Shown in pieces: positions 24,124 to 53,030 of a DNA stretch of 64,000 nt. The notes below the pieces were generated by a model, which saw nothing but the letters and a program-made list of their open reading frames with translations, had not been told where the DNA came from and searched no databases. Numbering within the stretch: position 1 is the first letter of the stretch; each line of letters opens with the position of its first letter. The DNA comes from an uncultured delta proteobacterium (GTDB lineage: Bacteria > Desulfobacterota > Binatia > JACPRU01). Location: the NCBI GenBank assembly GCA_963745025.1, contig CAVUWD010000016.1, positions 800,001-864,000 of the forward strand, written 5' to 3'. The translations under genes were made by a program, and so were the position numbers.

Positions 24124-24129
24124 CTTCGT

Positions 24130-25897: not shown

Positions 25898-25975
25898 GAT
25901 AGCTGGGATAAGCGGCCGAGTTGTAGAGCCTCAATATCCGACGCTGCCCAAACACGAGACGCCCCGTTTCTACGG
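25898..25975 (+). repeat. 80-bp island repeat, copy 1
   Basis: GATAGCTGGGATAAGCGGCCGA..AGCCTCAATATCCGACGCTGCCCAAACACGAGACGCCCCGTTTCTACGG. Confidence 0.95.
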
Positions 25976-26163
25976 CCCACGGAAAGGGGAGCCCGCCCCT
26001 TGTAGGATGTTGATTCCGAGCGGGGTGAGCTCGTCGTCGGCGATGGCGTCTGCACCCATGAGAAAGCTGAGGTACTCGTGCGGTCCAGGGATCACCGCTT
26101 ACCTCCGTTGCAGCGGACGGCGCAGATGAAACCCGCCGCGCTTCGTCTGCCCTGCTGCCGAGC

Positions 26164-27489
26164 TCACTCCACTGCAAAGAGACGCCATTCCCCCGGGATA
26201 CCCTTGAGCGTACGGGTGCCGTGCTCGCGAAAGTCGAGGCCGGACCCTGCGACGAGATCCTTGACCGTGCTCGACACCAGGATCTCGCCCGGTGCGGCCT
26301 CCGCCATCACGCGCGCGCCAGTATGGACGGCGATGCCGGCAATCTTGTCGTCGACGCGCTCGCACTCTCCCGTGTGGAGGCCAATGCGGGTCTCGATACC
26401 GAGACTTCGCACGGCGTCGCGGATGCTCTTGGCACAGCGGATGGCGCGCGCGGGACCGTCGAAGGTCGCGAGGAAGCCGTCGCCGGCGGTGTCGACCTCA
26501 CGCCCTCGGTGGTGCTCGAGCTCATGGCGAACGATCGCGTGGTGGCGACCGAGGAGATCGCGCCACGCGCGGTCGCCCAGCGCTATCGCTCGCTCGGTCG
26601 AGCCAACAATGTCGGTGAAGAGGACGGTGGCGAGCACCCGTTCCACGTCGACGGTCGAGCGCGAGCCAGTCAGGAATTGTTGGATCTCGGCGACCAGCGC
26701 AGCGGTGTCACCCATCCACGGAGGGTGCTCGTCGCCGGGCAGCTCGACGTAGCGCGCCATCGGGATATCGCGCGCGAGCGCGCGTCCTGCCTGAACGGGG
26801 ATCAGCTGGTCGCCGGCGCGATGGACCACGAGGGTCGGTACCTGGAGCGTGCGCGCGACCGGCCGGACGTCGATCTCCGCCAGCCATGCCAGGTGCGCCG
26901 CGCCGGCACGTGGACTCACGCACATGCGCTCGTAGCGGCCCATGAACCTGCGGGCGCGTGCGTCGTCCCTCGCCGCGGGGACCATCAGATCGATGGTCGT
27001 ACCCTGTCCCCACGCGGTCGCTAGCGCGTGGCGGATCTTATCGATCGCCTTCCAAGAGTCGACACCTTCGGGATAGTCGAACGCCGCGGACGCCCGCGCG
27101 AACGTCGCGTAAAGGACGAGCGCCCGAACGCGCTGGGGATAGGTCGCCGCGAAGAGCATGGAAAGGGCGCCGCCTTCGGAGAATCCCATGACCGCCGCCC
27201 GCTCCGATCCCGCCGCCGCCAGGACGGCTCTGAGGTCGTCCATGCGCTCCTCGAGCGTCGAGTCGCCGACGTCGCGATCCGAGAGCCCCGTGCCACGCTT
27301 GTCGAAGAGGATCACGCGGCTGAAGGCCGCGAGCCTCCGCACCCAGTCGCCGTAGAGCGGATCCTCCCACGCGAAGTCGACGTTCGAGATCCAGCCCGGG
27401 ACGACGACGAAGTCGAGCGGCCCGTCGCCGACGACTTGGTAGGCAATGCTGATGTCGCCGCTCTTGGCGTAGCGGGTCTCGGGGCGCAT
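26164..27489 (-). CDS. alpha/beta-hydrolase + class III cyclase fusion (LipJ-like)
   Basis: TRYAKSGDISIAYQVVGDGP, GFSEGG, ERVLATVLFTDIVGST, GDGFLATFDGP, IGLHTGECE. Confidence 0.9.
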   Translation of the reverse strand: MRPETRYAKSGDISIAYQVVGDGPLDFVVVPGWISNVDFAWEDPLYGDWVRRLAAFSRVILFDKRGTGLSDRDVGDSTLEERMDDLRAVLAAAGSERAAVMGFSEGGALSMLFAATYPQRVRALVLYATFARASAAFDYPEGVDSWKAIDKIRHALATAWGQGTTIDLMVPAARDDARARRFMGRYERMCVSPRAGAAHLAWLAEIDVRPVARTLQVPTLVVHRAGDQLIPVQAGRALARDIPMARYVELPGDEHPPWMGDTAALVAEIQQFLTGSRSTVDVERVLATVLFTDIVGSTERAIALGDRAWRDLLGRHHAIVRHELEHHRGREVDTAGDGFLATFDGPARAIRCAKSIRDAVRSLGIETRIGLHTGECERVDDKIAGIAVHTGARVMAEAAPGEILVSSTVKDLVAGSGLDFREHGTRTLKGIPGEWRLFAVE

Positions 27490-27808
27490 CGATATAGCTT
27501 AGCGCAGTCGCCGGCGGAGAACACCCCGAAGTACCGCCCGCATGACGGCCGAACGAGTGGCCGCTCAGCTGCGGCTGCGCCGAATGCTACCACGATCGAG
27601 AATCATCGCTCCCTCGTTTCTCGAGGGCGGATCGGTTCGCGGGTCGGGTGCCCCGGAAGGTGGATTCTGAACCGCGTGATTGCCGTCCGCAAAGTAGGCG
27701 ACCAGAGTATAGGTCTCTGCCCAACCGGGGCCGCACTCGATTGCTCGGATTGCCAACGCCAGATGGCGCAACGCCGTTAAAACGTTAAAGCCCTCAAGAA
27801 CTCAAGAG

Positions 27809-27888
27809 GATAGCTGGGATAAGCGGCCGACTGACGTAAAGCCTCAATATCCGACGCTGCCCAAACACGAGACGCCCCGTTTCTACGG
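27809..27888 (+). repeat. 80-bp island repeat, copy 2
   Basis: Identical to copy 5 over 80 bp. Confidence 0.97.
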
Positions 27889-28343
27889 CGTTTCGCGACT
27901 TCGGAAAGAGCTTGCCGCAGCGGTAGTCCTAGCCCGAGGAGCATCCGTGGAGCCGCGTCGGCGGGACGGCACGCTACAGTCGTGCAGGTGATCGGAACGA
28001 CCACCGTGGATCTGGTCCTACCCGGCATGGACCATCTCCCGAGCCTCTCGCAGACTCCCTTCGAGAGGAACCGGTCGCGCATCCGCTGACACGCCTCTCG
28101 ACCGTCAACCTGTAGACAGCGGTTCCCAAATCCGCCGCTCGTACTGGGGGCGCTGTGGGAAAAACCCGAGTGTCAGCCCACGGCCGATCGAAACCAGCGT
28201 GCCCTGCTTCCCGATAGGGCCTCCTCCCGGGGGGCCTGTTCCGGTGGCCGCTCGCTTCTCACGGGCGCTGCCGTAGCGCTTGGGCGCGCCAGCCGTTTGA
28301 TCGCCCGCGGCGGCCAAGGCACGATGGTTCTTGAGGTCACGGG

Positions 28344-29600
28344 ATGCTCGACGTTGCGATTACCGGGGTTGGCGTTCTCTCCGCGATCGGCCTTTCGGCG
28401 GAGGAGTTCCATCGCCAGCTGATGGCCGATGCTTCTGGGATTCGCCGAGCACCGTGGGCGGCGGACGTCGAGGGTGCTGCTGCTTGGCTGGCCACAGCCG
28501 CCGGGTTCGTGCCGCGCGACTGGATGGACGAGCGCGTCGAGGCGGGCACCGATCTCTTCACCCAGTTCGCCCTGGCCGCAACGGAGCAGGCGGTCCGGCA
28601 GGCGTGCCTCGGCGAGATCGATCCGCTTCGCACCGGAGTGGTCCACGGCACCAGCATCGGCGGCGCGCGGGCGTTGATGAAGGCGCAGTACCTCTTGGAC
28701 AGCCAGGGGCCGCGAGCGGTCCCGCGCAAGACCGAGATCCAGATGTACCCGAACATGGCGGCGGCACAGATCGCCATGCGCTACGGCCTTCACGGTCCGA
28801 GCCTGACCGTGACCACGGCGTGCGCGGCGTCGCTCGATGCGCTCGGTAACGCCGCCCGGCTGCTCGACGCGGGCCATGCGGACGTGTTGATCGCCGGCGG
28901 CACCGACGGCGGCACCAGCCTCGCGGGCGGCCGAGCCGATGGCGATTTCGTTCCCGCCACCTTCCACACGAGCAGGCTCTACGGCATGACGGCGCGCTCG
29001 GAAGATCCGCGGCGGGCCATGCTGCCGTTCGACGTCAAGCGGCATGGGATCGTGCTCGGGGAGGGCTCGGCGATGTTCATTCTCGAGCGGGGCGAGCACG
29101 CGCGCAGGCGCGGCGCTCGCGTGCTCGGATACCTGCGGGGATACGGCGCGCTCGCCGACGCCTACCATCCCTCCGCGCCGGACCCGAGCGGCAAATGGGA
29201 GGCTCGGGCGATGCAGCTCGCGCTCGCCGACGCCGGGATCGTGGCGGGAGAGGTCGACGCGCTGATCGCCCACGCAACCGGCACGCCGAAAGGTGATACC
29301 GCCGAGATTCGCGCGATCAACCACGTACACGGCGGCCGCTCGAAGCCGCTGCCGGTGGCCTCGATCAAAGGCCATATCGGTCACAGCGGAGCCGCTTCGG
29401 GGGCGATGGCCGTTGTGACCGGCCTGCTCGGCATGGCGGAGGGCCGCTTCACGCACACGTCCAACACCGACGAGCCCGATCCCGAAGCGCGGTTCGACGT
29501 GGTGATCGGACGGCCGAGGATGATCGAATACGCAACTCTTCAGGTGAACGCCTTCGGCTTCGGCGGCCAGAACGCCTCGATGATCGTGACTCGCGACTGA
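28344..29600 (+). CDS. FabF-like beta-ketoacyl synthase
   Basis: TACAAS (Cys), AHATGT and KGHIGHSG (His-His), NAFGFGGQNA. Confidence 0.9.
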   Translation: MLDVAITGVGVLSAIGLSAEEFHRQLMADASGIRRAPWAADVEGAAAWLATAAGFVPRDWMDERVEAGTDLFTQFALAATEQAVRQACLGEIDPLRTGVVHGTSIGGARALMKAQYLLDSQGPRAVPRKTEIQMYPNMAAAQIAMRYGLHGPSLTVTTACAASLDALGNAARLLDAGHADVLIAGGTDGGTSLAGGRADGDFVPATFHTSRLYGMTARSEDPRRAMLPFDVKRHGIVLGEGSAMFILERGEHARRRGARVLGYLRGYGALADAYHPSAPDPSGKWEARAMQLALADAGIVAGEVDALIAHATGTPKGDTAEIRAINHVHGGRSKPLPVASIKGHIGHSGAASGAMAVVTGLLGMAEGRFTHTSNTDEPDPEARFDVVIGRPRMIEYATLQVNAFGFGGQNASMIVTRD

Positions 29601-29684
29601 CGCGTGTGCGAGCCGCACCAGGCCCTCGGCTGGCGGCGTCGTCTCCGTCATGGGCGCGGGTTCTTGCGGCGGCGCGACGGCCGG

Positions 29685-29960
29685 TCAACCATGACGATAC
29701 CCATAGAGCCACCGAGCCGTCCCCTCTCCGGTGTTCCGCACCGAATGCCGGGCATGCGCCGGGATGAGGACCTCTTCGCCGACCGCCGAAACGATGGTCC
29801 GCCCGTCGATCTGCATCTCGAGCTCGCCCGAGACGAGCATCACGAGCTCGTCGGTCGCGTGCACGAAGTCCTCCCAGCGCTGCCCCGGCCGATCCGCCCA
29901 GAGGCCGCACGAGAAGCCGCGCGCCTCCCAGTCCCGTGCGACGGACGCACGGCGCCTCGG
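29685..29960 (-). pseudogene. cupin-domain protein, start codon not found
   Basis: Manual translation WEARGFSCGLW..WEDFVHATDELVMLVSGELE..IPAHARHSVRN..WLYGY. Confidence 0.65.
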
Positions 29961-29991
29961 CGCGGCAAGGAGAGTCGTAACGCCCTCTGGC

Positions 29992-30432
29992 TCACGGCTT
30001 CGGCTCAGGAGCGGTAAGATCCACGATCAGCAGCCAGGGCGAGCTCCCCGTATACGCGGCGAACGTGCCGGCGATCTTCGTTCCGGACGGCGCACCCCCG
30101 AGGCGGTCGACGTCCTCCGGCGCTCCCCGGATGGCGAACGACTGCGCCATGACCCGGGAGAGGTAACGATCGAACCCGGTTTCGCCGGGCGTCCCGTAAC
30201 GCGTGATCAGTAAAGTGTGCCGCCGACCCTGCGCGGTGATGTCGATCCGATCCAGGATCTCGGCGTCTTCGGGGGCGCGATCGAGGTAGCCTTCGATGAC
30301 GTAGAGGGACGGGCGCCGGAAGTCGGGGAGCGACGCCGAAAAGGCGAAGGAAATCGTGTGGCCTGCGCCGAGGAGACAGGCCGCGAGGAGCATGCCGGGG
30401 ACGCGCGGAATAGTCCGTTTCGTCGTGAACAT
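29992..30432 (-). CDS. hypothetical exported protein
   Basis: ORF with signal-like N-terminus MLLAACLLGAG; no family recognised. Confidence 0.5.
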   Translation of the reverse strand: MFTTKRTIPRVPGMLLAACLLGAGHTISFAFSASLPDFRRPSLYVIEGYLDRAPEDAEILDRIDITAQGRRHTLLITRYGTPGETGFDRYLSRVMAQSFAIRGAPEDVDRLGGAPSGTKIAGTFAAYTGSSPWLLIVDLTAPEPKP

Positions 30433-30469
30433 GGACAGATGGCCTCCGCTGAGTTGAATACCGAACACG

Positions 30470-30525
30470 CGGCGGCAGAATTTCCGGCCCTCCCGATTCT
30501 CGCTACCGCAGGATGAGCATCGCAT
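30470..30525 (-). pseudogene. zinc-ribbon cyclase N-terminal stub
   Basis: MRCSSCGSENREGRKFC matches the starts of the 25640 and 39153 ORFs. Confidence 0.65.
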
Positions 30526-30779
30526 TGAAGGACAGCTTGCCTCAGCAGGCGATAGTCCCTGCGGGTAGTTTCGCGCAAGCGCGCGGCGGTTCCGACGAAG
30601 GCCCCTCACGGAGAGGAGCGGCAGGCCTCATCAGAACCTACCTGCTTTTCACTCATGAAGGACAGGAAGCGCGAGTCGCGTCTTACCTATAGACGACGCA
30701 GTCAGGCGGACACAGCGGCTCGGCACAAACGGTAAAGCGCGATCGGTCGAACCGACCCGCAGCTTGCACGGAATTCTTG

Positions 30780-31181
30780 GGCAAAGAGGACGTGCAGCGG
30801 GCGCCAGCGGCGCAGCTTCAGGCCGGTGGCGATGGCCTCGCGGATGATCGCCGCTACGGTTTTCCAGTCGAGCTCGAAATGCGCGGCCACCTCCGCCGAC
30901 GAGAGCTTGCGGGCGAGCAGCGCCACGGCGCGGGCCAGAGAGGTCGTCACGCGGGCCCAGCGCGGCGCCCACGGCAGCGCCGAGCGCGCACACGGTAGGG
31001 CCGGTAGACGAGGATGAGCGGCCAGTCCCGCAGCGGCTCGCCTGGCCACAGCCGCTGCACCGCAGCCGCCGCCGGCCGAGGCGCGCGATCTTGACCACGA
31101 TCACCTCGCTCTCCTCGCGCACCGCCACCATCGATGGGCCTTGAGGCCCAACCCCTTCCTGATACACGTCTCCACCAGCAC
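30780..31181 (-). mobile_element. ISL3-family transposase fragment
   Basis: RLRCSGCG zinc finger, LPWAPRWARVT..LA, VAAHFELDWKTV. Confidence 0.7.
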
Positions 31182-31331
31182 CGCACCGCCCCTCCTCTCG
31201 TTTTCGACAACGAGAGAATACCAAGGGCGGGTTGGTGGCCTTAGCTGAAGGTCGCGTTGACACGTTCGCCCATTTGAATGTGGTTCGGTCCACGGCGCAT
31301 ACTTCCGTCCCTCGAGAGGGGGTGCACCACG

Positions 31332-33071
31332 ATGAAGATCAAAGCACTGGGGCATGTGGTGTTGCGGGTGACCGACCGCGAGCGCGCCGAGCGCTTTTAT
31401 GGCGGCCTGCTCGGACTGCCGCTCTGTGGACCTACCCCGGTTTCGTAGACGGTTACGGGCTTGGGTTGAGCCCCCGCTCTTGATCCTCTTCTTCACGTCG
31501 ATGAAATCGATCTTGGTTTTCTAAGGGGAGCCTGAGGGGGATTTTTCCCCGGAGTGCAGACGATGCGGGTTGTACCAGCCTTCGATGAACTGGAACACCG
31601 CGATGCGCGCCTCGACCTGCGAGCGGAAGCGGTTGCGATCGAGAAGCTCGCACTCGAGCGTGGCGAAGAAGCTCTCGCACATCGCGTTGTCGTACGCGTC
31701 GCCGACCGATCCCATCGAGGGCCGCACGCCGGCTTCCCCGCAGCGTTTACCGAAGGCGACCGAGGTGTACTGGCAGCCCTGATCGGAGTGATGGATCACC
31801 TCGTTCGGCCGCCGCTGGAACAGCGCCATGTCGAGGGCCTGGAGAACGAGCTCGGTCCGCAGATGGGTCTCCATCGCCCAGCCGATGACTCTGCGGCTCC
31901 ACGCATCGAGAACGACGGCGAGATAGAGGAAGCCCGTCCACGTCGGGATGTAGGTGATGTCAGCGATCCAGAGACGATTCGGAACCGCGGCGACGAAGTT
32001 GCGGGAAACCAGGTCCGGCGCGGGTCGCGCGTCACGGTCGCGCACCGTCGTGAACGTCCCCTTTCGCCGCGTCACGCCTTGCAAGCCACCACGTCGCATG
32101 AGACGAGCGACTCGCTTGCGGCCCACAAGCGTCCCTCGATCGCCGAGTTCGGCGTGCATCCGCGGAGCGCCGTAGGTCCCTTGGGACCAATGATGGATCT
32201 CGCGGATCTGCGCCTCGATTGCACGGTCGGTCTTCTCGCGCTCCGACATCGGACGCTGCGCCCGTGCCCAGTACCCACTGGCGGAGACGCCCAGCGTGCG
32301 GCACATCGTGGCGGTTCGGTGCATGGCCTGGTGCCTCTTCACGAACTCGAACGCCGCGACGACGTCGAGCCGGTCTCCTGCGCAAACCAGGCCGCGGCTT
32401 TTTTCAGGATCTCCTTCTCTTCGCGCAGCACCCGATTCTCACGTCGAAGCCGGTTCAGCTCCTCTCGCTCATCGGTCGTCAGCCCATCGCTGCGCCGGCC
32501 CTCGTCGCGATCGAATTGTCGTACCCAGTTTCCAATCGCCTGCGCCGAAGGCTCAAACTGTCGAGACAGCTCCTCGGGTGTCTTGCCTGCGCGCACCATT
32601 TCGACCATCCGCCGGCGGTACTCCAACGGGTACGGTCGATGACTCTTGGGCATCGTGAACTCCTTTCTCCGCCGGGGTACTCCCCCAAGCGGTCAGGTGT
32701 CCACGAAACCGGGGTAACTCCACTGCGCACGCCTCGACGAGGGCGGCCTCAAGATGGCGTTCTTCACGCTCGGCAACCACCACGACTTTGCCGTGATGGA
32801 AGTGACCGGTGGGGGCAGCAGCCGCAGCCAGTCTGCGGTCGGCTTGGATCACGTCGCGTTCAAGATCGGCACCACGATGGATGAACTGCGTGAAGCCAAG
32901 GCCAAACTGGACGCCGCGGGCATCACGACGACAGCGGAAGATCATGAGGTCACCAAGTCGCTGTACTTCGCGGACCCCGATGGCAACGGCATCGAGGTCT
33001 ACGTCGATGCATCCGATGCGTGGCGCCGGGAGCCGCAGCGCGTGGCGCAAGCGAGGCCGCTCGAGATATAG
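31332..33071 (+). pseudogene. VOC/glyoxalase-family gene interrupted by IS3
   Basis: MKIKALGHVVLRVTDRERAERFYGGLLGLPLC joins ARLDEGGLKMAFFTLGNHHD..GLDHVAF..LYFADPDGNGIE once the IS is removed. Confidence 0.85.
31427..32722 (-). mobile_element. IS3-family insertion sequence (1296 bp; orfA 32339-32653, orfB 31521-32342)
   Basis: Terminal IRs TGGACCTACCCCGGTTTCGTAGAC / TGGAGTTACCCCGGTTTCGTGGAC, 3-bp TSD CTG, A6G slippery site, DDE motifs WIADITY, HHSDQGCQY, DNAMCESFF. Confidence 0.95.
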
Positions 33072-33793: not shown

Positions 33794-33837
33794 AGGATGG
33801 TCGATCGGAGGTACGTGATCGAGGTCGAGTGGCGTGA

Positions 33838-35360: not shown

Positions 35361-35419
35361 AGCCTCAATATCTGACGCTGCCCAAACACGAGACGCCCCG
35401 TTTCTACGGGGCGCATAAG
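35361..35419 (+). repeat. 80-bp island repeat, copy 3 (right part only, plus GGCGCATAAG)
   Basis: AGCCTCAATATCTGACGCTGCCCAAACACGAGACGCCCCGTTTCTACGGGGCGCATAAG. Confidence 0.92.
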
Positions 35420-37920: not shown

Positions 37921-38219
37921 GGACACACCTCCCCTGCCGGAGCCAGGTGATCATCGCGCCGCCCATGGCGGGCTCCACGAAGCCTGAACCCGCGGCCTGC
38001 GGATTGAGTCATGCTCGTGCTAATCACACTGCACTGCGAAGAGGAAGAGAAAAACGCCGGCGCCTCCGAACCTCGATCACGTTCGAGGCGAAAATGCCCC
38101 GACCAAGGTTAGGACCGTCCCCCTCTCCCCCGGCGCTGGCGCGTGCTTGGCGCGGCTGGCTGGACAGTGGTCGAGTCCCGGATGGAGCTCGCGCGAACTC
38201 GAGCCTCGTCTCGTCCGAG

Positions 38220-38314
38220 GAGTAGCTGGGATAAGCGGCCGACTGACGTAAGGCCTCGACTATCTGGGCACGCTGCCCAAACACGAGACGCCCCGTTTCT
38301 ACGGGGCGCATAAG
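38220..38314 (+). repeat. 80-bp island repeat, copy 4 (small indels, plus GGCGCATAAG)
   Basis: TAGCTGGGATAAGCGGCCGACTGACGTAA..CGCTGCCCAAACACGAGACGCCCCGTTTCTACGGGGCGCATAAG. Confidence 0.92.
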
Positions 38315-38382
38315 GCACCTGTCCACCAAAATCTTGGCGCCGGGCGGGCGAATCGCCCCCCGCCCGCGTCGGGCCGCCCGGC

Positions 38383-38679
38383 TCAGCGGGCGGCCCCCCC
38401 GGGTGCGGACGCTGCCTGCGAGCCAGAGTGCAGAGAATATCCCGCCCCTCGCCTGAGACTCCGTGCCGCTCGGCCGTATCTCGAATCGACTGCCGCGAAG
38501 TCGAAGAATCCCGTCGCCTCGCGGCGGCGGCCGCACGGGCGCAGGGCGCGGACCGTTGCGGCCGCGATACCGAGGTGAGAGAGGATCTTCCTGATCACCG
38601 CCGGATCCTCGATGGTGGCGAGTAGACGCAGCCGCCCGCCGCACTCGGGGCAGGCAAGAACGTCGATCTCGAAGGTCCG
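38383..38679 (-). mobile_element. IS91-family (rolling-circle) transposase C-terminal remnant
   Basis: RTFEIDVLACPECGGRLRLLATIEDPAVIRKILSHLG. Confidence 0.75.
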
Positions 38680-39153
38680 CTAGCAGGCGCGGCGGGCATG
38701 GTCTTCGTGCGCGATCGGTGCGCCGAAGATCGCCATGATGCCGTCGCCGGTAAACTTGTCGACCGTGCCTTCGAAACGATGCACACCATCGGAGAGAATC
38801 TGGAAGAAGCGGTCCATGATCCGATACCAGTCCTCCGGGTCCACCTTCTCGCCGAGATCCATCGAGCCCTTCACGTCAGCGAAGAGCACGGTCACCTGCT
38901 TGCGCTCGCCTTCGAGGGCGGCGCGGGAGGTGAGGATCTTTTCGGCGAGGTGACGAGGAGTATAGCTTCGGGGCTCAGGCGCAGAAGGTCGCGACCGGGT
39001 TTCCGCTGCCGGCTTTCCGCACCGATTGCAGAACTTTACGCTAGGTGGGAGCTCAGCTCCGCACTGCCCACAGACGAGGGATAAGCGCGCTCCGCACTCG
39101 AAGCAGAATCTCGAATCGGCAGGATTCTCGAACGCGCAACTCGGGCACCGCAT
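38680..39153 (-). pseudogene. zinc-ribbon/cyclase N-terminal fragment
   Basis: MRCPSCAFEN..GERKQVTVLFADVKGS..HEDHARRAC*; paralogue of 24369-25640. Confidence 0.85.
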
Positions 39154-39397
39154 CGATCAGTCTTCTCAGGACATCTGGGCGAAGGGACCGTAACCCCGGG
39201 GGCCGGCGACGCGCAAGCGACCACGACGGGGAAACCGGATAACCAGCAGACGCAGACGACGAAGGTCTCCGCGACGATCCGGCTCGGAGTGCAGAGTTAG
39301 ACCGTAAGGGGCACCTCGTCGCGGCCGGCAGCGGCTAGTCAACAGTGCGCATCGTCCAGAGCCGCCCGGGTGGCCGTGAATCCATCGCCTGCTTCCG

Positions 39398-39682: not shown

Positions 39683-40059
39683 CAGTTTCGGCTGCCGAAC
39701 GTCGCGACGTCCCGTCTCCGGCAATGGCCGATGCCCGGCGAGAAGGCGAGGGCGCGCGTCGTGTACGAGCTACCTACGACCTGGCTCGAGTGTCCGATAC
39801 CGAACGCCCTACCAGGCGGGAAACTCTCCGTCCGACGGGTGGCCGTGAAGGGCTCGAAAGCTACATAACGATCGATCTCGGACGCTACGGATTCCTCCTT
39901 ACCGCCCGCTTTTACGGTGATCGTGCGCTGGCGCAGCCTCACGGAGAACTACCGCATGCGACCGCGCCCGGAGGAGATCCTGGCGCAGATTCGCGACTGA
40001 GGTGAGGCTGAGCTTTCCTCACGCGCACGAGGTCGATGATCCCGGCGGATTGCGTGCGC

Positions 40060-42366: not shown

Positions 42367-42569
42367 GGTCCTCTCGCCGACTTCATACGGCAGAACCCGA
42401 TGACAGTCACGCTTGGACAGGAGCGAAATCAGCTATGCGGGGCTCGCTCGCTTGCGACTCACGACTCTTCGATCTCGATCGCTTCTTCGGGGCAGTTGGC
42501 CCGTGCCAGACGGGCCTTGGACTCGAGCCCCGCCGGCACGGTTTCGTCTGGAATGAGGCAGTGGCTGGG

Positions 42570-42649
42570 GATAGCTGGGATAAGCGGCCGACTGACGTAA
42601 AGCCTCAATATCCGACGCTGCCCAAACACGAGACGCCCCGTTTCTACGG
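42570..42649 (+). repeat. 80-bp island repeat, copy 5
   Basis: Identical to copy 2. Confidence 0.97.
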
Positions 42650-43812: not shown

Positions 43813-43911
43813 CCGTAGACAGGGGCGTCTCTAAAAACCGGAGTCTCGAAGGACGGGGGTAGCGTCTGATATCGCCGCGTTACGTCAACCAGGCCGCTTA
43901 TCCCGGCTATC
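43813..43911 (-). repeat. island repeat, copy 6 (divergent, 99 bp)
   Basis: CCGTAGACAGGGGCGTCTC..GCGTCTGATATCGCCGCGTTACGTCAACCAGGCCGCTTATCCCGGCTATC. Confidence 0.8.
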
Positions 43912-44340
43912 CTCAACTGCCCTATCGTTGTCTGTCCAGAGTCGATCTTCGCGAGCTCCAAAGCATCCGCCTCGCTCGAGTGGATGTAGCGACCGTAGTG
44001 CTTCTTGAGCGTGCTCTCGGCGACGCCCGTTTGCTCTGAAACCCATGTCAGGTTCACACCCCTCGTCAGCGCCACGCTCACGTACGTGTCCTTCGTCGCG
44101 TAGAGGTCGCGAAGACGAAGCCCGAGCAAGCGCTGCGCGTCACAGAAGAACCGGTAAAAGTTGGCCTGGTTGATCGGCCCGCCGAGAGTATTTTTGAAGA
44201 GATACTCGTCGGCACTCGGGTGCAGCTGGACGAGCGGCTTCAGGATCTCGACATTGCGGGGGATCAGCCTTACCGTCCTCGCCGCCGATGGCGTCTTTGG
44301 CGCGTTCTCTTCGCCGAGCGAGCGCGATGTTTCGACCCTT
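43912..44340 (-). pseudogene. tyrosine integrase C-terminal remnant
   Basis: APKTPSAARTVRL, YLFKN, LRDLYATKDTYVS, VSEQTGVAESTLKKHYGRYI. Confidence 0.8.
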
Positions 44341-45957: not shown

Positions 45958-46500
45958 TCACAACCCGAGTTCCTTCGCCACCTGCTCGGCGCGGATCGGC
46001 GCGCCGATCTCCGTGAAGAGGCGATGCGCCTCGCGGAGCTCGCGCTGGCGGGTGGCGTCATCGCCGCTCAGCCGCGCGAGCTCGGCACGCTCGACGTGAA
46101 GGAACGGCTCGTAGCTCTTCGCGCCAGACATCTCGAGCCAGGCGTCGGCTTCGGCGAGCGCGACCTCGATCTCTCTCGTCGCCTGAAGGCCCTGGATCTC
46201 ACGGAGAGCGCGGATCCGGGTGAGCAGAGCCGAGAATTCCCAGAGTCGGGAGCCGAGCCGGCGGCCGACGGCGGTCGCTTCCGCTGCGAGAGCCAGGGCC
46301 CTTTCGCGATCGCCGAGACCGAGCTGCGCTGCCGCCATTCGTTCGTCTCGGGCGGCGCTCACGGTCTCAGCGCGGAAGTGGCGGCGACGTTCACCCACGC
46401 GGTCGCGGCGGTGCTGGTGGCAAATGTACTCGAGGATCCCGAGCGGCAGATGGTCGAGGCGATCTGCAAGGCGCGGCGCGAAGGCCGATGTCTCCAGCCG
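45958..46500 (-). pseudogene. cyclase/ATPase/TPR protein C-terminal fragment
   Basis: SYEPFLHVERAELARLSGDDATRQRELREAHRLFTEIGAPIRAEQVAKELGL*. Confidence 0.7.
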
Positions 46501-46555
46501 CTCAATCCATCTATCCCCCCACAACGCCTGCCGATCGGCGTATAGTGAGGAAATC

Positions 46556-47416: not shown

Positions 47417-47742
47417 TGTCAGGGAACCGGGGTATTCCCGGAGGTTCTGATCCAACTGGAATTCGTGATCAGGTGTCCACGTCTGATGCGACGCTCACCA
47501 CGCTGATTATGGGAAAGCAAAAAAGGCGTCGAACGCCTCGGGCCGGAGGGGGCTCCCCATCCCGGCTCCAAACCCGGAGCCTTCCGTACGCGAGCTCACG
47601 GCCCTAGACGACGAGATAATGCCGAATCAGTCATCCCCTCACCCAGCCAAAAGAGCGTGGCGAGCAGAAAGTACGTGGCGGCCGCCAAAACGCGTGCAAC
47701 CCCAAGGAAGAGGGTCTGTTGGGAAGCAGTAGGAGGTGCGCC

Positions 47743-47907
47743 ATGACTCTCCAGGAACAGCAAAACGTCCAGTACAAGTGCCTGTTCTGTAAGGGAAAGT
47801 TCGGGAGCGCACAGGACCTGCGCGAGCACCCGTGCCAGGCGCGCCAGGGCGCGATGTCGGGACAGCGGCTGCAGAAGAAGGCGCCGCGTCGCGAGCAGAA
47901 GCACTGA
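47743..47907 (+). CDS. 54-aa putative zinc-finger microprotein
   Basis: AGGAGG RBS; YKCLFCKGKFGSAQDLREHPC. Confidence 0.55.
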   Translation: MTLQEQQNVQYKCLFCKGKFGSAQDLREHPCQARQGAMSGQRLQKKAPRREQKH

Positions 47908-48224
47908 GCCATCGGATTCAGCCGACGGAGTGGGCGAGCTCGGAGCTCAACGCATCGACCTCCCCAATGCGCTCGATCGCCACAGCGGCTCCCATGCTCG
48001 CTCCGATCACGGTGGCTCGAAAAGCGCCGAGCACCCGCACGGCGCTTTTCGCGGCCGCCAACACCGCGAAGGCTCTCGTCTGCGGTGATCGTGACGATCT
48101 CCCGTTCGACCGCAGCCAGCTGCTCCCGCGTGCAGGATCTGGTCGGCGAAGATCGGCATGAGGATTGCTCGAGGGTGCTCGGCGTGGCTATGGTCGAGCC
48201 TCCCAACGGACGGAGGAGGTCTAG

Positions 48225-48598
48225 ATGATCGGATACGTGACGCTCGGAACCAACGACCTCGCAGCGCGCGGCCAAGTTCTACGACGCGCTGCTCGCGCGA
48301 GCTCGGCGCCAAGCGCGCGATGGAGACTCGAGACCTTCATCGCCTGGGGCATCGGCGCCGAGCACGCCGATGGTCTCGGTGATCAAGCCGTTCGACGGCA
48401 AGCCCGCGACGGTCGGCAACGGCGTGATGGTCGCGCTCGCGGCGAGTCAGCAAGGCGCAGGTCGACGCGATCCACACGAAGGCGCTCGCGCTCGGCGGCA
48501 AGGACGAGGGCGCGCCCGGCCCGCGCGGCGACGGCTTCTACGCCGGCTACTTCCGCGACCTCGACGGCAACAAGCTGAACGCGTTCTTCATGGGCTAG
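48225..48598 (+). CDS. VOC/glyoxalase-family protein (frameshifted)
   Basis: MIGYVTLGTNDL, KPFDGKPATVGNGVMVAL, FYAGYFRDLDGNKLNAF. Confidence 0.8.
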
Positions 48599-48820
48599 CG
48601 CGCCGACGAGAAGCAGCCTCTGGAGTCGCTGTTCGCTCCACCATTGTTTTGCCGGCGATCGGGGTCATTTCCAGACGGGCGCGAGGTGTTGGGGATAGCG
48701 AAAGCTCGGCGCAGGCGCGATGTCACTAAAGAGGCCAGCTCTCTTGCTGAGCACGTTCAGGCCCGAATTTCGCCTTCTTCTCCATGTAAGGAGTACTTCC
48801 AGCCATCCGGAGTGTGACTC

Positions 48821-50017
48821 ATGAACACGAAACCGTTCGTATTCAACCTGTCCGGCGTCGTCTTCCTCCTCTGCCTAGCCGCGGCCACGCGCAGCGAGCG
48901 GGCGGAGGCCGAGTCGAAGGTCATGCCTGTCAGGATCGGCGCCGTCTACAACCTCTCCGGCGCCCAGGCTTCGCTGGGACAGCCGTCGCTCAACGGGGCG
49001 ATCCTTGCCGTGGAGCAGCTCAACGCTCGCGGCGGGCTGCTCGGCCGCCGCGTCGAGCTGGTCTCCGTCGACGGCCGGACAGATCCCGCGCTGATCGCCG
49101 AAGAGACCAAGCAACTCGTCCACAGCCCCGGGATGTCGGCGATAACCGGCCTCAGCGACACGAACCTGGTCCTCGCGGCCGCGCCCGTCGCCGAGAAGGC
49201 CCGCATGGTCTTTCTCACCTCGGGGGCGACCTCGCCGCGGGTGACGCTCGAGTTTCCGAACTACTACTTCATGGCCTGCTTCGGGGACAATACGCAGGCG
49301 GCCGCTGGCGCCGAGTACGCCTACTCGGTGCTCGGCGCGAAGACGGCCTACCTGCTCTTCGACGACACGACGGACTACACGGTCCTGCTGGCCGGCTACT
49401 TCAAAGATCGCTATCTGCAGCTCGGCGGCCAGATCGTCGGCGAGGATACGTACACTGGCGGGGCGGCGGACTTCTCCGCGCAGATCGCGAAGATCAAGGC
49501 GCTCGAGACGCCGCCCGACATGCTGTACGTCTCGTCGGGCCCAGACGAGATCGGCACCCTCGTTAAACAGCTCCGCGACGCAGGGGTCGGCGAGCCTGTC
49601 TTCGGCGGCGACGGCTACGACACGCCTCTGCTTCTGAAGATCGCCGGCGAGGCGGCGAACGGTGTCTACTTCACGACCCACGCCCTCTTCGACCCGACGC
49701 AGGCGACTCCGCTAGCAAAGCAGTTCATCGATGGGTATCAGGCGCGGTTCGGCACGCCGCCCGAGAGCTCCTTTGCGGGCCTTGGCTACGACGCGCTCAA
49801 TCTGGTGGCCGCCGCGATCGACCGCGCGGGCTCGGCGAAGCAGAAGGTGATCCGCGGCGCGCTCGAGGCGACGCGGGACTTTGCGGGCGTCACCGGCACC
49901 ATCAGCTTCGCACCGGGTCTTCACATTCCCGAGAAGCAGGTGACGATCGTCCACATCACAGGCGGCGCGCTGACGCTTGCGGCGATACTAGCTCCGCAGG
50001 AGGTGCCGGCGCCCTGA
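48821..50017 (+). CDS. branched-chain amino acid-type ABC substrate-binding protein (no permeases adjacent)
   Basis: Signal peptide, IGAVYNLSG, NARGGLLGRRVELV, DFSAQIAKIK, LGYDA, FAGVTGTISF. Confidence 0.88.
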   Translation: MNTKPFVFNLSGVVFLLCLAAATRSERAEAESKVMPVRIGAVYNLSGAQASLGQPSLNGAILAVEQLNARGGLLGRRVELVSVDGRTDPALIAEETKQLVHSPGMSAITGLSDTNLVLAAAPVAEKARMVFLTSGATSPRVTLEFPNYYFMACFGDNTQAAAGAEYAYSVLGAKTAYLLFDDTTDYTVLLAGYFKDRYLQLGGQIVGEDTYTGGAADFSAQIAKIKALETPPDMLYVSSGPDEIGTLVKQLRDAGVGEPVFGGDGYDTPLLLKIAGEAANGVYFTTHALFDPTQATPLAKQFIDGYQARFGTPPESSFAGLGYDALNLVAAAIDRAGSAKQKVIRGALEATRDFAGVTGTISFAPGLHIPEKQVTIVHITGGALTLAAILAPQEVPAP

Positions 50018-50414
50018 GCTCGGCGTCAACGAGCGAGATCTGTCCGTCGACGATCCAGCCATCTGGCGGTCGCCGTCATCCCTGAGACGCTAGGCGACCG
50101 CCCCCGACACCCACGCCAAGGTGATGTAGAAGAGCTTCATTCCTCGAAACCGTGCCGTCCTTCCATTGCCAACGATGGCGGCAATCGGCGATTGCTCGAA
50201 AATGGCACCGGGCACAGTCGGCCCATTCTTCAAATTCGGTCAGGTTATGCGGCGCAATAACTCTGATCAAAACGGTAGGAGGAATTCCGATCGTACATCC
50301 TTCGGAAGCTGGGCCGGGCGCAGAGCGCGAGCTTCTTGGGTCACGTCGACGTGGTCCTCTCGCTCGCGGCGACGCGTGAGGCGTCTGAGGGCCCGGGTGA
50401 CTGGTCGACACGTT

Positions 50415-50563
50415 CGAGAGCATCGAAGCGGCGATATTCGAGGCCGCGCTTCGAGATGAGCCACGTGCTGCCGCCGCTTACGTAGGCCAAGGCGCCGAAG
50501 CCGTCGTATTTCAGCTAGAACAGCCATCGTGGGTGGTCGAACGGCTGGCGGAATCGCGCGAGC
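50415..50563 (-). pseudogene. ATP-dependent DNA ligase N-terminal stub with internal stop
   Basis: QPFDHPRWLF*LKYDGF (motif I ExKYDG). Confidence 0.6.
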
Positions 50564-50777
50564 TGCAAGAAATCCAAGGATACCTCAACGGGATGCTTCT
50601 CAACCGTGAAGTGGGGCAGCGACCTCAAAGCCCGTCGCCTGTTCAACCAAGTAGACCTGTTGGCCGCGACACATCTGGTTCGCCGGAAAGCCAACGGCCG
50701 TCGGTGCTGCGGAATCTCCGCGGTGCGGATCGTGTTCGGTGCCGGGATTGTGCTTTTGCGCCGAGCAAGGAGGTATC

Positions 50778-50942
50778 ATGACACACAGCCGTATAGGTGA
50801 CTTTGTTTTTGCTCGCGCTGATGTGGTTGATGAGCTTCACGCAGAGGGTAAAGATGACGCGGAGATCGCGCGGACACTGAGCATAGATGCGGACCAAGTT
50901 TTGCTGATTCGTACGCGACACCGCGTAGACGATCTCGATTGA
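50778..50942 (+). CDS. small hypothetical (HTH-like) protein
   Basis: AGGAGG RBS; ELHAEGKDDAEIARTLSI. Confidence 0.45.
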   Translation: MTHSRIGDFVFARADVVDELHAEGKDDAEIARTLSIDADQVLLIRTRHRVDDLD

Positions 50943-50977
50943 AGGAGCGCCAACCGACGGCCGCGCGTCACTTCATC

Positions 50978-51665
50978 TAGTCCTGAAATAAGCGCCAAGG
51001 AAATCGCTTGGTAGCGATTGGGGCTATTGGCGCGCACGCGACCGTCTGTGGACGGTGATTCATAGAGGTTTGCCTCGGTGCGTGTAGCGAATCTGACGTC
51101 GAAGTGCACTGAGCAAGGTTCGGCGGTTTTCTTCGGACGAGCGTCATCATCCGGTCGTGGTCGTCGCGGCCGGCGAGGAGGCTGGGAAGGCGCTCCGGAG
51201 CTCGCCCTACACTTGTAGCCGCGCGTGCGCGGTACGGATCTCGGGCAGGTAGCGATGCGAGCCAGCAAGCCGCACCATCAGCCGCCGCCCCTTCTTCAAC
51301 ACCTTGGCCGCGACGTAAACGAAGTGGCGGCGGAATCGCTTCCACTCCCAGCGCACGACCTCCGAGGGGAGCGCGAGCTGGGCGATCCACTTCCCGAGGT
51401 TCCAAGCCAGCCGAGCGATTTGCAGCCAGGCCGAGTTGCCCTGAAACTCCGCCACCGGCATGCGCCATCCGGCGATCCCCTTGCCAAATTGCTCGATGGT
51501 GTTTTCCTGATCGCACCGCTGGTAGGTCACGTCGACGATCTCGTGCGCCGTGTAGGAGCGCGGCAGGTTGCTCAGCACCAGCCGGTAGCGGAAGTACTCG
51601 AACAGCGCCCCCTGGCCGTCTTTCTCCTCGATGCGGATGCGCCGCACGATCATCCGACAGGGGGA
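50978..51665 (-). mobile_element. IS1380-family remnant (transposase C-terminus and right end)
   Basis: YRLVLSNL..YQRCDQENTIEQ..FQGNSAWLQIARLAWNL..FRRHFVYVAAKV. Confidence 0.75.
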
Positions 51666-51994
51666 GTCGAGCCCCTGAGGCTGGTCACTGCTGTCCAAAT
51701 TAGCTCTGAAACGGTCCCCAGGGCTCGCATAAACTCTTGAAATCATGAGTCTTCGCTGGTGTCGTCTCCGTCCAGGTCTCCCGGGCGTTTTGCTGCTGTC
51801 CAAAATGCCAACGATAGGCATGTCGTTTGCCCGGGTCCCTGAGCCGCCTTCGGAAAACGGCCCCAGAAGCGCCTTGCGGCTGAAAAATGTGCGGAATCCC
51901 GAGGTTGGCGCTGGAGTCGGTCTCGATCGCGTCGATCTCCAGAAAGCTATCTTGGACAAGAGTGGGTGTGGCCTGGAGCTCATACAGGAACCAG

Positions 51995-52843
51995 CTAAAT
52001 ACGACCGAGAAAAGCCATCATTGCATTCAGCACCGGTGTCTGACCTTGGTCCTGGAGATGCAGAAGATGACCAACTCCGTCGATCGGGGCGAATTGCACA
52101 TTGCTGAAATTCTGTCGCAGCCAGGAAATTTCATCATCTGTCATGACCGCGCCGAGCTTGGGTTCCCCTCGTAGGAACAGGACAGGACAATCGATCTTCG
52201 CCAAGATCTGTTTGTAGTCATACCCCTTAGTGAAGCTCTCGAAATCGTGTAGCAGCACAGTAAAGAAGGTGGGATCGAGCTGCCACAGACAGCCGGCGAA
52301 GAATAAGATCCATCCGCTGGTTATGCCGGAATAATCTTTGTATGCTTCGGCCAGTGCCAGGGAGAGTGCTTGTTCTGATTGCGCCGATTGCCTCAGGCGC
52401 AGCCAGAGACCGAACATGTCCCGGCTCGAATCGATGATTCTCTTGTAGTTCTCCAGGGTCAAAGGCGAATCCTCGATGATGAGGGCTTTCGATTTGTCCG
52501 GGCATCGCGCAGCTACCATGAGCGCAATGACGCCGCCGATCGAGTGTCCCACGAGCACCGCTGGCGCGTGCAACCGGCTTACGAATTCCGCGTCGTCCTC
52601 TACGAAATCCTCGAGCCGATACTTCCCCGGCACCCATCCTGATCGGCCATTTCCCCGCAAATCCAATGCATAGACGCGCCAGCGTTGTCCCAAGCTCGGA
52701 ATGAGAGACAGATATTCTTGCCAGCGCCAAGCGCCACCATGCAGCATGACCAATGGTTTGCCCGAGGTAGAGCCGTGGTCCAGATAATTCAGCTTCACCG
52801 CCTTCGCGGTGAAAATTCTTTCCCGTGGCATGTGCGTCGCCAT
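51995..52843 (-). CDS. alpha/beta-fold hydrolase
   Basis: LVMLHGG, DLRGNGRS, GHSIGG, GVGHLLH; lower GC than host genes. Confidence 0.85.
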   Translation of the reverse strand: MATHMPRERIFTAKAVKLNYLDHGSTSGKPLVMLHGGAWRWQEYLSLIPSLGQRWRVYALDLRGNGRSGWVPGKYRLEDFVEDDAEFVSRLHAPAVLVGHSIGGVIALMVAARCPDKSKALIIEDSPLTLENYKRIIDSSRDMFGLWLRLRQSAQSEQALSLALAEAYKDYSGITSGWILFFAGCLWQLDPTFFTVLLHDFESFTKGYDYKQILAKIDCPVLFLRGEPKLGAVMTDDEISWLRQNFSNVQFAPIDGVGHLLHLQDQGQTPVLNAMMAFLGRI

Positions 52844-52948
52844 GGCTATCAACTCTGCCGCACGGAATAGCTAGTACAACTGATTCGCACAACGGGAATC
52901 GGTCGAGGTCCGATATGTTTCGGAAGTCGTTTTAATCTCAACTGCCGC

Positions 52949-53030
52949 CCGTAGAAACGGGGGCGTCTCGTGTTTGGGCAGCGTCGGATATTGAGGCTTT
53001 AAGTTAACTCCGCCGCTTATCCCTGCTAAC
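52949..53030 (-). repeat. 80-bp island repeat, copy 7
   Basis: CCGTAGAAACGGGGGCGTCTCGTGTTTGGGCAGCGTCGGATATTGAGGCTTTAAGTTAACTCCGCCGCTTATCCCTGCTA. Confidence 0.92.

What the first reader, a model, noticed from the sequence alone, without database searches (positions are those of the whole stretch)
25898..53030. Seven-copy ~80-bp non-coding element punctuating the island: candidate undescribed gene-shuffling/mobile system
Seen: the consensus GATAGCTGGGATAAGCGGCCGACTGACGTAAAGCCTCAATATCCGACGCTGCCCAAACACGAGACGCCCCGTTTCTACGG occurs at 25898, 27809, 35361 (partial), 38220 and 42570 on the + strand, and at 43813 (divergent, 99 bp) and 52949 on the - strand. Copies 2 and 5 are identical. No copy was noticed in the 24 kb of housekeeping DNA or beyond attR. 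The element has sharp ends, no terminal inverted repeats, no evident target duplication, and 1-9 kb spacing. It does not fit a CRISPR array, integron attC, classical MITE or REP. Inference: it is a recombination site or minimal non-autonomous element that marks junctions between unrelated DNA blocks and may have helped build this mosaic island.
Basis: partly seen in the sequence, partly recalled or inferred. Interest (0 to 1): 0.88.

Follow-up and report, generated by a model that had tools for sequence, protein, structure and literature searches.

The report
Miniature IS91-family transposon end repeat
The repeated 84-base element is real, but it is the tail end (the replication-origin end) of a rolling-circle IS91/ISCR-type jumping gene that survives mostly as solitary mini-copies, so it is a new member of a known kind of gene-shuffling element rather than an undescribed system.

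Summary
All seven copies are at the stated places. Copies 2 and 5 are identical. Ends are sharp, with no terminal inverted repeats and no target duplication (0 of 24 full copies).

The element is not confined to this island. The genome holds 36 BLAST copies and 59 profile hits, mostly in co-oriented clusters. It also occurs in 2 of 7 other genomes of the family, in 0 of 33 genomes of other families, and in 18 of 21 matched metagenome contigs.

Copy 4 gives the identity. Its inner side runs into the C-terminal tail of an ISCR/IS91-type transposase (window 38383-38679). The order tail, then spacer, then element recurs in four loci of this genome and two of a related one. One of those still has the whole, frameshifted transposase. 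An intact integrase plus IS91 transposase element in that relative ends in a similar terminus, though the match is weak (nhmmer E 0.015).

So the element is the oriIS end. The solitary 84-bp copies resemble the right-end miniature fragments shown for IS801. This is a new member of a known family and of moderate interest.

The parts
25895..25975 (+). Copy 1, solitary 81-bp element with a 3-nt shorter centre. Its outer (GAGGATAGC) end faces the start of the cyclase fragment gene 24369-25640(-).
   Evidence: gene domains
27806..27888 (+). Copy 2, solitary full-length element, identical to copy 5.
35361..35409 (+). Copy 3, inner (3') half only. The outer half is replaced by unrelated sequence.
38217..38304 (+). 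Copy 4, the 'long form'. The element is still joined to the interior of its parent IS.
38305..38679 (-). Remnant of the parent IS next to copy 4: a spacer plus ORF 38383-38679(-). The ORF encodes the C-terminal tail of an ISCR/IS91-type transposase (RTFEIDVLACPECGG...ILSHLG). It is cut at 38680, where it is fused to a cyclase gene fragment (38680-39156, -).
   Evidence: ORFs; NF052416 E 1.1e-8, profile 452-503 of 509, far below the curated cut-off; same unit at other loci
42567..42649 (+). Copy 5, solitary, identical to copy 2 over 81 nt.
43813..43916 (-). Copy 6, divergent copy with a partly duplicated tail.
52949..53031 (-). Copy 7, solitary copy with a diverged outer end.
39836..39919 (+). 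Eighth, strongly diverged relative of the element. It keeps GGACGCT and CCCGCTTTTACGG.
   Evidence: alignment; similar short repeats at C11:240180, C3:9405; below the nhmmer threshold

Best explanation
The 84-bp element is the origin end (oriIS, the end downstream of the transposase gene) of an IS91/ISCR-family insertion sequence. This family moves by rolling-circle, single-strand transposition using an HUH 'Y2' transposase. In this lineage the complete element carries a tyrosine-recombinase gene directly upstream of the transposase gene. Read as the reverse complement (E'), the layout is: integrase, transposase, a spacer of about 80-350 nt, then E' ending in ...GCTTATCCCAGCTATCCTC, then the flanking DNA. 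That much is shown by linkage and homology. The following is inferred. Most copies are solitary 'miniature' right-end fragments. They would be made when transposition starts at the origin end and stops early at a terminator-like site 84 nt inside, at ...TTTCTACGG. This is the process shown experimentally for IS801. Such copies would be moved in trans by a transposase that is absent from, or not assembled in, this genome. On the element's strand both ends follow a ..GG dinucleotide (GAGG|ATAGC... at the outer end and ...CTACGG| at the inner end). That would fit one nuclease cutting both ends. Later events could then explain why copies sit at junctions of unrelated blocks and truncated genes: homologous recombination between near-identical copies, one-ended transposition carrying neighbouring DNA along, and deletions.
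For: 1. Linkage to a transposase.
- Window ORF 38383-38679(-) beside copy 4 matches the last about 50 positions of the ISCR clade Ia transposase model (E 1.1e-8).
- The order tail, then E' on one strand recurs at C17:53490-53933 and C11:263168-263573. C6:522586-522920 keeps part of the same unit. It recurs again at G006:C23.
- In G006:C3 a diverged element lies downstream of three frames that together cover the ISCR model at positions 22-164, 171-358 and 436-507 (E 8.6e-38, 1.1e-22, 1.6e-17), plus Y2_Tnp and Zn_Tnp_IS91.

2. Element and spacer diverge together in three lineages. This argues that they are one unit.

3. An intact relative.
- G006:C6 has an integrase (292 aa) followed by an IS91 transposase (408 aa; Y2_Tnp 2.8e-50, Zn_Tnp_IS91 1.8e-28).
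- About 357 nt downstream there is a terminus GCGCTTATGCCATCTATCCTC, resembling the outer end of E' in the expected place and orientation. The sequence match itself is weak (nhmmer E 0.015).

4. Family traits are met.
- No inverted repeats and no target duplication in 24 of 24 copies.
- Conserved bases abut the outer end: G at -2 in 46 of 47 distinct junctions and A at -1 in 36 of 47.
- The size matches the 82 bp of the IS91 right end reported as sufficient (PMC13181058, passages read).

5. Precedent for miniatures. IS801 right-end fragments of 229, 360 and 679 nt transpose and end at a fixed tetranucleotide (PMC3189936, passages read).

6. The inner end is the same in 52 distinct junctions from several genomes and metagenomes.

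7. The same gene pair, integrase plus IS91 transposase, is annotated in rhizobial plasmids.
Against: - No intact transposase lies next to any copy in this genome. The only Y2_Tnp hit is a 145-aa fragment far from any copy.
- No empty site was found among 77 full-length hits, so insertion as an 84-bp unit is not shown.
- The left (terIS) end of the parent element was not identified.
- The conserved bases next to the outer end are only 2-3 nt and do not match the CTTG/GTTC targets of the studied family members.
- The two palindromes are weak. DNA folding of a solitary copy is no better than shuffles (z +0.38 and +0.43). An alignment of 27 versions gives no compensatory pair.
- All matches to the ISCR and IS91 NCBIfam models are below their curated cut-offs.
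- Several copies share the same outer flank but have different inner flanks. Simple insertion plus cargo transport does not predict that.
Confidence: 0.72

Rival explanations
1. The element is an attachment or recombination site for the tyrosine recombinase encoded beside it. Cassettes would be shuffled by site-specific recombination between copies, in an integron-like way, and the transposase remnant would be incidental.
For: - An integrase gene lies on the same strand just upstream of the transposase tail and E' at C11:263.7-264.3k. It also lies near copies in C17, C19, C20 and C16:634k: 5 of 12 recombinase loci are within 4 kb of a profile hit.
- Flanks are mosaic. The same outer flank occurs with different centres and inner flanks.
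- Clusters are co-oriented: 8 of 8 on C17, 7 of 7 on C4, 4 of 4 on C6.
- A precedent exists. An integrase moves the ISCR2-sul2 unit through att sites, one of which overlaps the proposed terIS (PMC9376610, passages read).
Against: - No integron integrase is present.
- The centre between the two arms varies in length by 1-3 nt and is 11-14 nt long. That is unlike a tyrosine-recombinase core.
- Partial copies break at five different positions.
- Truncated genes abut both ends.
- The same integrase-transposase pair is a normal IS91-subgroup layout, so the linkage needs no special role.
- The mosaic flanks can arise by ordinary homologous recombination between 95-100% identical repeats.
Confidence: 0.12
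2. The element is an independent interspersed repeat, of the REP/REPIN or other structured type, that merely serves as the preferred insertion target of the IS91-like element. On this view it is not part of the IS.
For: - IS91-family elements insert with the origin end next to a specific short target.
- In long-form copies a strong hairpin (GCGCCCCGTTTCTACGGGGCGC) spans the boundary between spacer and element.
- Two Y1_Tnp genes exist in the genome.
Against: - Spacer and element co-diverge in three lineages.
- The intact relative in G006:C6 has only the outer 40 nt of the element at its end, where an IS terminus should be.
- Copies are clustered in accessory regions rather than spread through intergenic DNA.
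- The Y1 genes are far from any copy.
Confidence: 0.08
3. The element is a cis-regulatory module or small RNA gene, such as an outward promoter or a terminator, that is shared by many genes.
For: - As E' it lies roughly 110-410 bp upstream of a co-oriented predicted gene at roughly half of the copies. This rests on my own crude GC3-based gene calls.
- ISCR1 carries outward promoters in its oriIS end (PMC13393415, passages read).
Against: - No Rfam family matches.
- No sigma-70-like promoter or terminator was found in 25500-28200.
- Neighbouring genes are unrelated and often truncated.
- Near-identity over 84 nt with sharp ends is typical of mobile DNA.
- An outward promoter would be a side effect of the IS end, not a rival identity.
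Confidence: 0.04

Closest known systems
oriIS (right) end of IS91-family and ISCR elements (IS91, IS801, IS1294, ISCR1/2/8)
   Same: It lies downstream of an HUH Y2 transposase gene. It has no inverted repeats and no target duplication. It is a sharply defined outer end abutting variable DNA. About 80 bp is sufficient in IS91. The family is associated with mosaic regions and gene capture (PMC13181058 and PMC13393415, passages read).
   Different: I could not compare the sequence with published ori ends, because figures and ISfinder were not available. The bases next to the end (..GA / GAGG on the element strand) are not CTTG/GTTC. The palindromes are weak. The transposase scores below the curated ISCR and IS91 cut-offs, so this is a distant lineage. 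The parent carries an integrase gene.
Miniature right-end fragments of IS801 (Bardaji et al. 2011, PMC3189936)
   Same: Both are continuous fragments that keep the right end and stop at one fixed internal point. Both are non-autonomous and lack inverted repeats and duplications.
   Different: The element here is 84 bp, against 229-679 nt. Dozens of copies are fixed in the genome and in relatives, whereas the 360-nt and 679-nt IS801 fragments had no resident copies in strain 1448A. Mobility is not shown here.
IS91-subgroup elements with an upstream tyrosine recombinase (for example on Rhizobium sp. CCGE531 plasmid pRCCGE531b, NZ_CP032687.1)
   Same: A 292-aa integrase gene sits directly upstream of an IS91 transposase of about 400 aa. 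The protein identity is 43-46%.
   Different: The terminus motif of the element was not found in that record. The host phylum is different.
Integron attC sites and cassette arrays
   Same: Both are short, imperfectly palindromic sites with variable centres that separate co-oriented blocks.
   Different: No IntI is present. I saw no RYYYAAC/GTTRRRY boxes (motifs recalled from memory, checked by eye only). Blocks are 1-10 kb and often hold truncated genes. The element is linked to an HUH transposase.
REP/REPIN elements with RAYT (Y1) transposases
   Same: Both are short non-coding repeats tied to an HUH enzyme.
   Different: Copies here are clustered in accessory DNA and are not paired inverted REPs. 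The Y1 genes are not near any copy.

Membership tests
IS91/ISCR family (parent element) | An HUH Y2 transposase (Zn_Tnp_IS91 + Y2_Tnp) is encoded next to the end, with the ori end downstream of the gene. | tested here: met
   In G006:C3, Zn_Tnp_IS91 (2.2e-18), Y2_Tnp (2.4e-11) and the tail lie upstream of a diverged element, with two frameshifts. The window and three other G000 loci keep only the C-terminal tail. No intact gene lies beside any copy in G000.
IS91/ISCR family (parent element) | No terminal inverted repeats; two different ends. | tested here: met
   The ends GAGGATAGC... and ...TTTCTACGG are not inverted repeats of each other.
IS91/ISCR family (parent element) | No target-site duplication. 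| tested here: met
   No shared flanking repeat of 5 nt or more in 24 of 24 full copies. Caveat: no empty site is available for comparison.
IS91/ISCR family (parent element) | A conserved target tetranucleotide abuts the ori end. | tested here: inconclusive
   Across 47 distinct outer junctions, G is at -2 in 46, A at -1 in 36, and -3 is not C in 45. Only 2-3 positions are conserved, and they differ from CTTG/GTTC.
IS91/ISCR family (parent element) | Subterminal imperfect palindromes in the ori end. | tested here: inconclusive
   Two imperfect palindromes are visible and appear in minimum-energy folds. However, z is +0.38 for a solitary copy and no pair covaries in 27 versions.
IS91/ISCR family (parent element) | A terIS end with a palindrome and cleavage site upstream of the transposase gene. 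| tested here: inconclusive
   I read the left side of the G006:C3 copy. Its end could not be placed from a single copy.
IS91/ISCR family (parent element) | Rolling-circle transposition with single-stranded circular intermediates. | not testable with these tools
   The read laying gave only 150-290-nt low-depth contigs.
IS801-type miniature right-end fragments | A continuous piece of the right end that stops at one fixed internal site resembling the left end or the target. | tested here: inconclusive
   The inner end is the same in 52 distinct junctions, and both ends follow ..GG on the element strand. The left end of the parent is unknown, so the resemblance cannot be checked.
Integron (attC + IntI) | An integron integrase is present in the genome. 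| tested here: not met
   TIGR02249 gave 17 partial matches, 0 over the cut-off. The control genomes ring at the same low level.
REP/REPIN-RAYT | A Y1 transposase is flanked by or associated with the repeats, and the repeats are dispersed through intergenic DNA. | tested here: not met
   The two Y1_Tnp hits (C13:188500, C11:419866) are not near any copy. Copies are clustered.

The most novel reading that the evidence does not exclude
The 84-bp origin modules may still be active. They would be moved in trans and, through one-ended rolling-circle events, possibly helped by the linked tyrosine recombinase, would pick up and re-deal neighbouring gene pieces. That would build co-oriented cassette-like arrays. 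It would be an ISCR-driven counterpart of integron arrays in an uncultured environmental lineage, with the shortest self-sufficient IS91-type unit yet seen.
Probability: 0.18. Interest if true: 0.6.

Novelty: new member of a known kind. Interest (0 to 1): 0.35.

Why it matters
- It replaces an 'unknown shuffling system' with a concrete, testable identity. The island and several other accessory regions of this genome are peppered with origin-end relics of an IS91/ISCR-type element.
- This family is best known for capturing resistance and virulence genes in clinical and plant-pathogenic bacteria. Here it is seen at high copy number in an uncultured 'delta proteobacterium' lineage. That label comes from the record title.
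- An 84-bp unit with both ends fixed would mark out a minimal origin-plus-stop module for this subgroup.
- In practice the repeat breaks assemblies (two contig ends) and marks synteny breakpoints. Annotators of related metagenome genomes should mask it and name it.

Tried and rejected
- Rfam at gathering thresholds found only the tRNA. ARAGORN found only tRNA-Leu.
- Integron reading: rejected.
- IS200/IS605 or RAYT reading: two Y1 genes, both far from any copy.
- IS110 reading: seven hits, none adjacent to a copy.
- Protein-coding reading: two frames of E' are open, but the 1-nt and 3-nt length differences between copies exclude it.
- Single crossover point: rejected, because partial copies break at different positions.
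- Empty sites: none within G000, none in the relatives for three solitary chromosomal copies, and none among 77 hits in all the DNA I held.
- The island is not syntenic in G001 or G006.
- Promoter and terminator scan of 25500-28200: 0 and 0.
- Sequencing runs: no RNA holder was listed, and the best DNA holder carries 0.21 of the sampled words. Laying four runs gave only short low-depth contigs and no supported joint at an element end. This says nothing either way.
- GC-skew test for strand bias: E lies on the strand with positive 100-kb skew in 9 of 35 copies, that is on the negative-skew strand in 26 of 35. Counted by independent loci the split is about even and the skews are small, so this is inconclusive.
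- Covariation: none.
- PLSDB plasmids: no DNA match to the element plus spacer.
- Terminus motif in the Rhizobium IS91 record: no match.
- Metagenome contig L063, which carries the short GGCGCATAAGG extension: no transposase downstream.
- The intact IS91 genes of G001 (L093, L098) and G006:C7 (L092) have no element downstream.
- Supplementary files and figures of the papers were not seen. Figure 1 and the Supplementary Data of PMC13181058, and Figure 2 of PMC3189936, may hold end sequences that bear on the ori/ter comparison.
- ISfinder could not be searched.
- On whether this is in print: (IS91, oriIS, terIS) returned 19 papers. One search ('IS91 family', MITE) returned 9 papers, of which only PMC3189936 describes miniature IS91-family fragments.

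Full report
**1. Observation**

The 80-mer of the finding matches exactly at 27809-27888 and 42570-42649, with no match in 100 shuffles. Repeat finding and alignment recover the remaining copies:
- 25895-25975 (+)
- 35361-35409 (+), inner half only
- 38217-38304 (+)
- 43813-43916 (-), divergent
- 52949-53031 (-)

A profile built from nine diverse copies finds exactly these seven in the window and none outside 25894-53028. An eighth, far more diverged relative sits at about 39836-39919.

In an alignment of 26 genomic copies, both ends are sharp: GAGGATAGC... and ...TTTCTACGG. There are no terminal inverted repeats. None of 24 full copies has a flanking direct repeat of 5 nt or more. The centre differs in length by 1 and 3 nt between copies, so the element is not coding, even though two frames of the reverse complement are open.

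**2. Distribution**

The window is G000:C16:800001-864000. The genome holds:
- 36 BLAST matches with E <= 1.3e-4, out of 40 rows listed
- 59 profile hits at E <= 0.01, 43 of them near full length

The high-scoring copies are clustered and co-oriented:
- 8 of 8 on contig C17
- 7 of 7 on C4
- 4 of 4 on C6
- 3 of 3 on C11
- 5 against 2 in the window

Two contigs end in a copy, so the count is probably an underestimate.

Elsewhere:
- The element is in 3 of 41 related genomes searched, counting G000. G001 (same genus) has 9 matches and G006 (another genus of the family) has 3. It is in none of 33 genomes from other families of the class.
- The order holds only the same eight genomes.
- A scan of 185,579 species' genomes hit one MAG, titled 'uncultured delta proteobacterium'.
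- A metagenome scan gave 21 contigs. By inspection, 18 carry the element and 3 are chance matches.
- Variants there include three contigs in which the outer arm is replaced by a GCCCATCTTCATGGGC-type hairpin (diverged and partial in L054), one internal deletion, and one truncated tail.

**3. The element marks breakpoints**

- Homology between the inner flank of C6:480419 and an element-free gene at C13:479139 starts within 1 nt of the element's end. A second case (C11:246956 against C16:495888) starts within about 8 nt.
- For the solitary chromosomal copy at C16:1103534, 93% synteny with G001 stops 31 nt before the outer end. The other flank maps elsewhere.
- Genes of a hugely expanded zinc-ribbon / adenylate-cyclase / AAA_16 / TPR family abut copies at several different codons.
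- Some copies share one flank but not the other.
- Partial copies break at five different positions.
- No empty site was found anywhere.

**4. Identity**

About ten copies continue past the inner end with GGCGCATAAGG... For five of them the shared sequence extends 200-390 nt.

In the window this stretch contains ORF 38383-38679(-). Its product begins RTFEIDVLACPECGGRLRLLATIEDPAVIRKILSHLG and is fused at 38680 to a cyclase fragment. It matches the C-terminal 50 positions of NCBIfam 'ISCR element clade Ia family transposase' (E 1.1e-8). That score is far below the model's cut-off, as expected for a tail alone.

The order tail, spacer, reverse-complemented element (E') on one strand recurs at these loci:
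- C17:53490-53933 and C11:263168-263573
- C6:522586-522920, which keeps part of the same unit
- G006:C23
- G006:C3

In G006:C3 a diverged element (about 60% identical) is preceded by three frames carrying Zn_Tnp_IS91, Y2_Tnp and the tail. Together they cover positions 22-507 of the 509-position ISCR model, with two frameshifts.

Element and spacer diverge in step in three lineages, which argues that they are one unit.

In G006:C6 there is an intact pair: a 292-aa tyrosine recombinase and a 408-aa IS91 transposase (Y2_Tnp 2.8e-50). About 357 nt downstream lies ...TTATGTCAACATGGGGCGCTTATGCCATCTATCCTC. This resembles the outer 40 nt of E' (...TTACGTCAGTCGGCCGCTTATCCCAGCTATCCTC). The statistical support is weak (nhmmer E 0.015 over 21 loci), but it sits in the expected place and orientation.

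That transposase is 43-46% identical to proteins annotated 'IS91 family transposase' that lie beside a 'tyrosine-type recombinase/integrase' on rhizobial plasmids.

In G000 the integrase survives next to the tail at C11, with a DNA polymerase III beta-like gene upstream. The transposase body is gone. The only Y2_Tnp hit in the genome is a 145-aa fragment elsewhere.

**5. What the literature says** (passages read, not whole papers)

- PMC13181058: IS91-family elements have two different ends, oriIS and terIS. They make no target duplication and insert next to a tetranucleotide that abuts oriIS. The oriIS of IS91 and IS801 has two imperfect subterminal palindromes. The last 82 bp of IS91 suffice as the right end.
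- PMC13393415: in ISCRs, terIS lies upstream of the transposase gene and oriIS downstream. ISCR1 has outward promoters in its oriIS end.
- PMC3189936: in Pseudomonas syringae pv. phaseolicola 1448A, 26% of IS801 events move miniature right-end fragments (229, 360, 679 nt) that stop at a tetranucleotide like the left end. Most resident IS801 fragments look like products of rearrangement.
- PMC9376610: an island integrase can move the ISCR2-sul2 unit through att sites, one of which overlaps the proposed terIS.

**6. Mechanism proposed**

Shown: the element is the end downstream of an IS91/ISCR-type transposase gene, and it has the family's hallmarks.

Inferred: the solitary 84-bp copies are miniature right-end fragments. 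They would arise when rolling-circle transposition starts at the outer end and stops at an internal site 84 nt in.

Consistent with this:
- The inner end is identical in 52 distinct junctions from several genomes.
- On the element strand both ends follow GG (GAGG|ATAGC, CTACGG|).
- Next to the outer end, G is at -2 in 46 of 47 distinct junctions and A is at -1 in 36 of 47.

Copies could then become junctions of unrelated blocks in three ways: recombination between near-identical copies, one-ended events that carry neighbouring DNA, and deletions.

Points against or untested:
- There are no empty sites.
- No transposase is at hand in this genome.
- The left end of the parent is unknown.
- The palindromes are weak: z is +0.38 and +0.43 for a solitary copy, -2.05 for the long form and -3.02 for G006:C3.
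- No pair covaries.
- The conserved flank bases do not match CTTG/GTTC.

**7. Rivals**

- A recombination site for the linked integrase remains possible (about 0.12).
- An independent repeat used as the IS's target is less likely (about 0.08), because of the co-divergence and the G006:C6 terminus.
- A purely regulatory identity is unlikely (about 0.04). An outward promoter could still be a side property.

**8. Verdict**

It belongs to the IS91/ISCR family rather than to an undescribed system. I rate it a new member of a known kind, of moderate interest (0.35). The bolder reading, active mini-origins building cassette-like arrays, is not excluded (about 0.18).

Noticed in passing
G000:C17:43115-45476 (L070:3115-5476); also C11:263747-266082 and C6:498552-500886: A 499-aa DNA polymerase III beta (sliding clamp)-like gene (TIGR00663 E 8.5e-44) lies directly upstream of the IS-linked tyrosine recombinase. 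It recurs at three loci: 93-96% identical at C11 and only 34% at C6. A clamp homologue travelling with an integrase/IS91 remnant is unexplained.
   Followed up: partly
window 24369-25640(-), 26164-27489(-), 38680-39156(-), 54020-56701(-); many loci in G000, G001, G006: There is a very large paralogous family of adenylate/guanylate cyclase proteins with double zinc ribbon, AAA_16 and TPR parts. The first 1.3 kb of the window gene has dozens of matches at 66-87% in each of G001 and G006. Several copies in the island are fragments.
   Followed up: partly
window 24041-24124 and 60763-60794: tRNA-Leu(GAG) and a 32-nt direct repeat of its 3' end (30 of 32 identical) lie 36.7 kb downstream. This fits an island integrated at the tRNA. 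No integrase was found among the 20 ORFs in 24369-60595 that I scanned.
   Followed up: partly
window 31421-32728: An IS3-family insertion sequence: an rve/HTH_21 transposase ORF at 31521-32342(-), bounded by 45-nt imperfect inverted repeats at 31421-31465 and 32684-32728 (73% complementary).
   Followed up: partly
window 51207-51983(-): C-terminal fragment of a DDE_Tnp_1_4 transposase (profile 298-431 of 435), another IS relic in the island.
   Followed up: no
window 95-167, 3497-3533, 6150-6218, 8999-9051, 19686-19741: A second short repeat rich in GGTAGCCGG / CGGCTACCG units recurs in both orientations in the housekeeping part of the window (repeat finder D17, I1, I5, I10). I did not examine its nature.
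   Followed up: no
metagenome loci L050, L052, L054: These copies have the outer arm replaced by a different perfect hairpin (GCCCATCTTCATGGGC in L050 and L052, diverged and partial in L054), preceded by TTGACAG in L050 and L052. This suggests modular exchange at the outer end.
   Followed up: no
L042:3897-3935 (G001:C1) versus G000:C16:1103534-1103618: At the orthologous cyclase fragment, G001 carries a different subfamily tail (...CGCCCGTTTTTACGG) in the opposite orientation to the G000 copy, within about 40 nt of the same point in the gene. This could be independent hits or a local inversion.
   Followed up: partly
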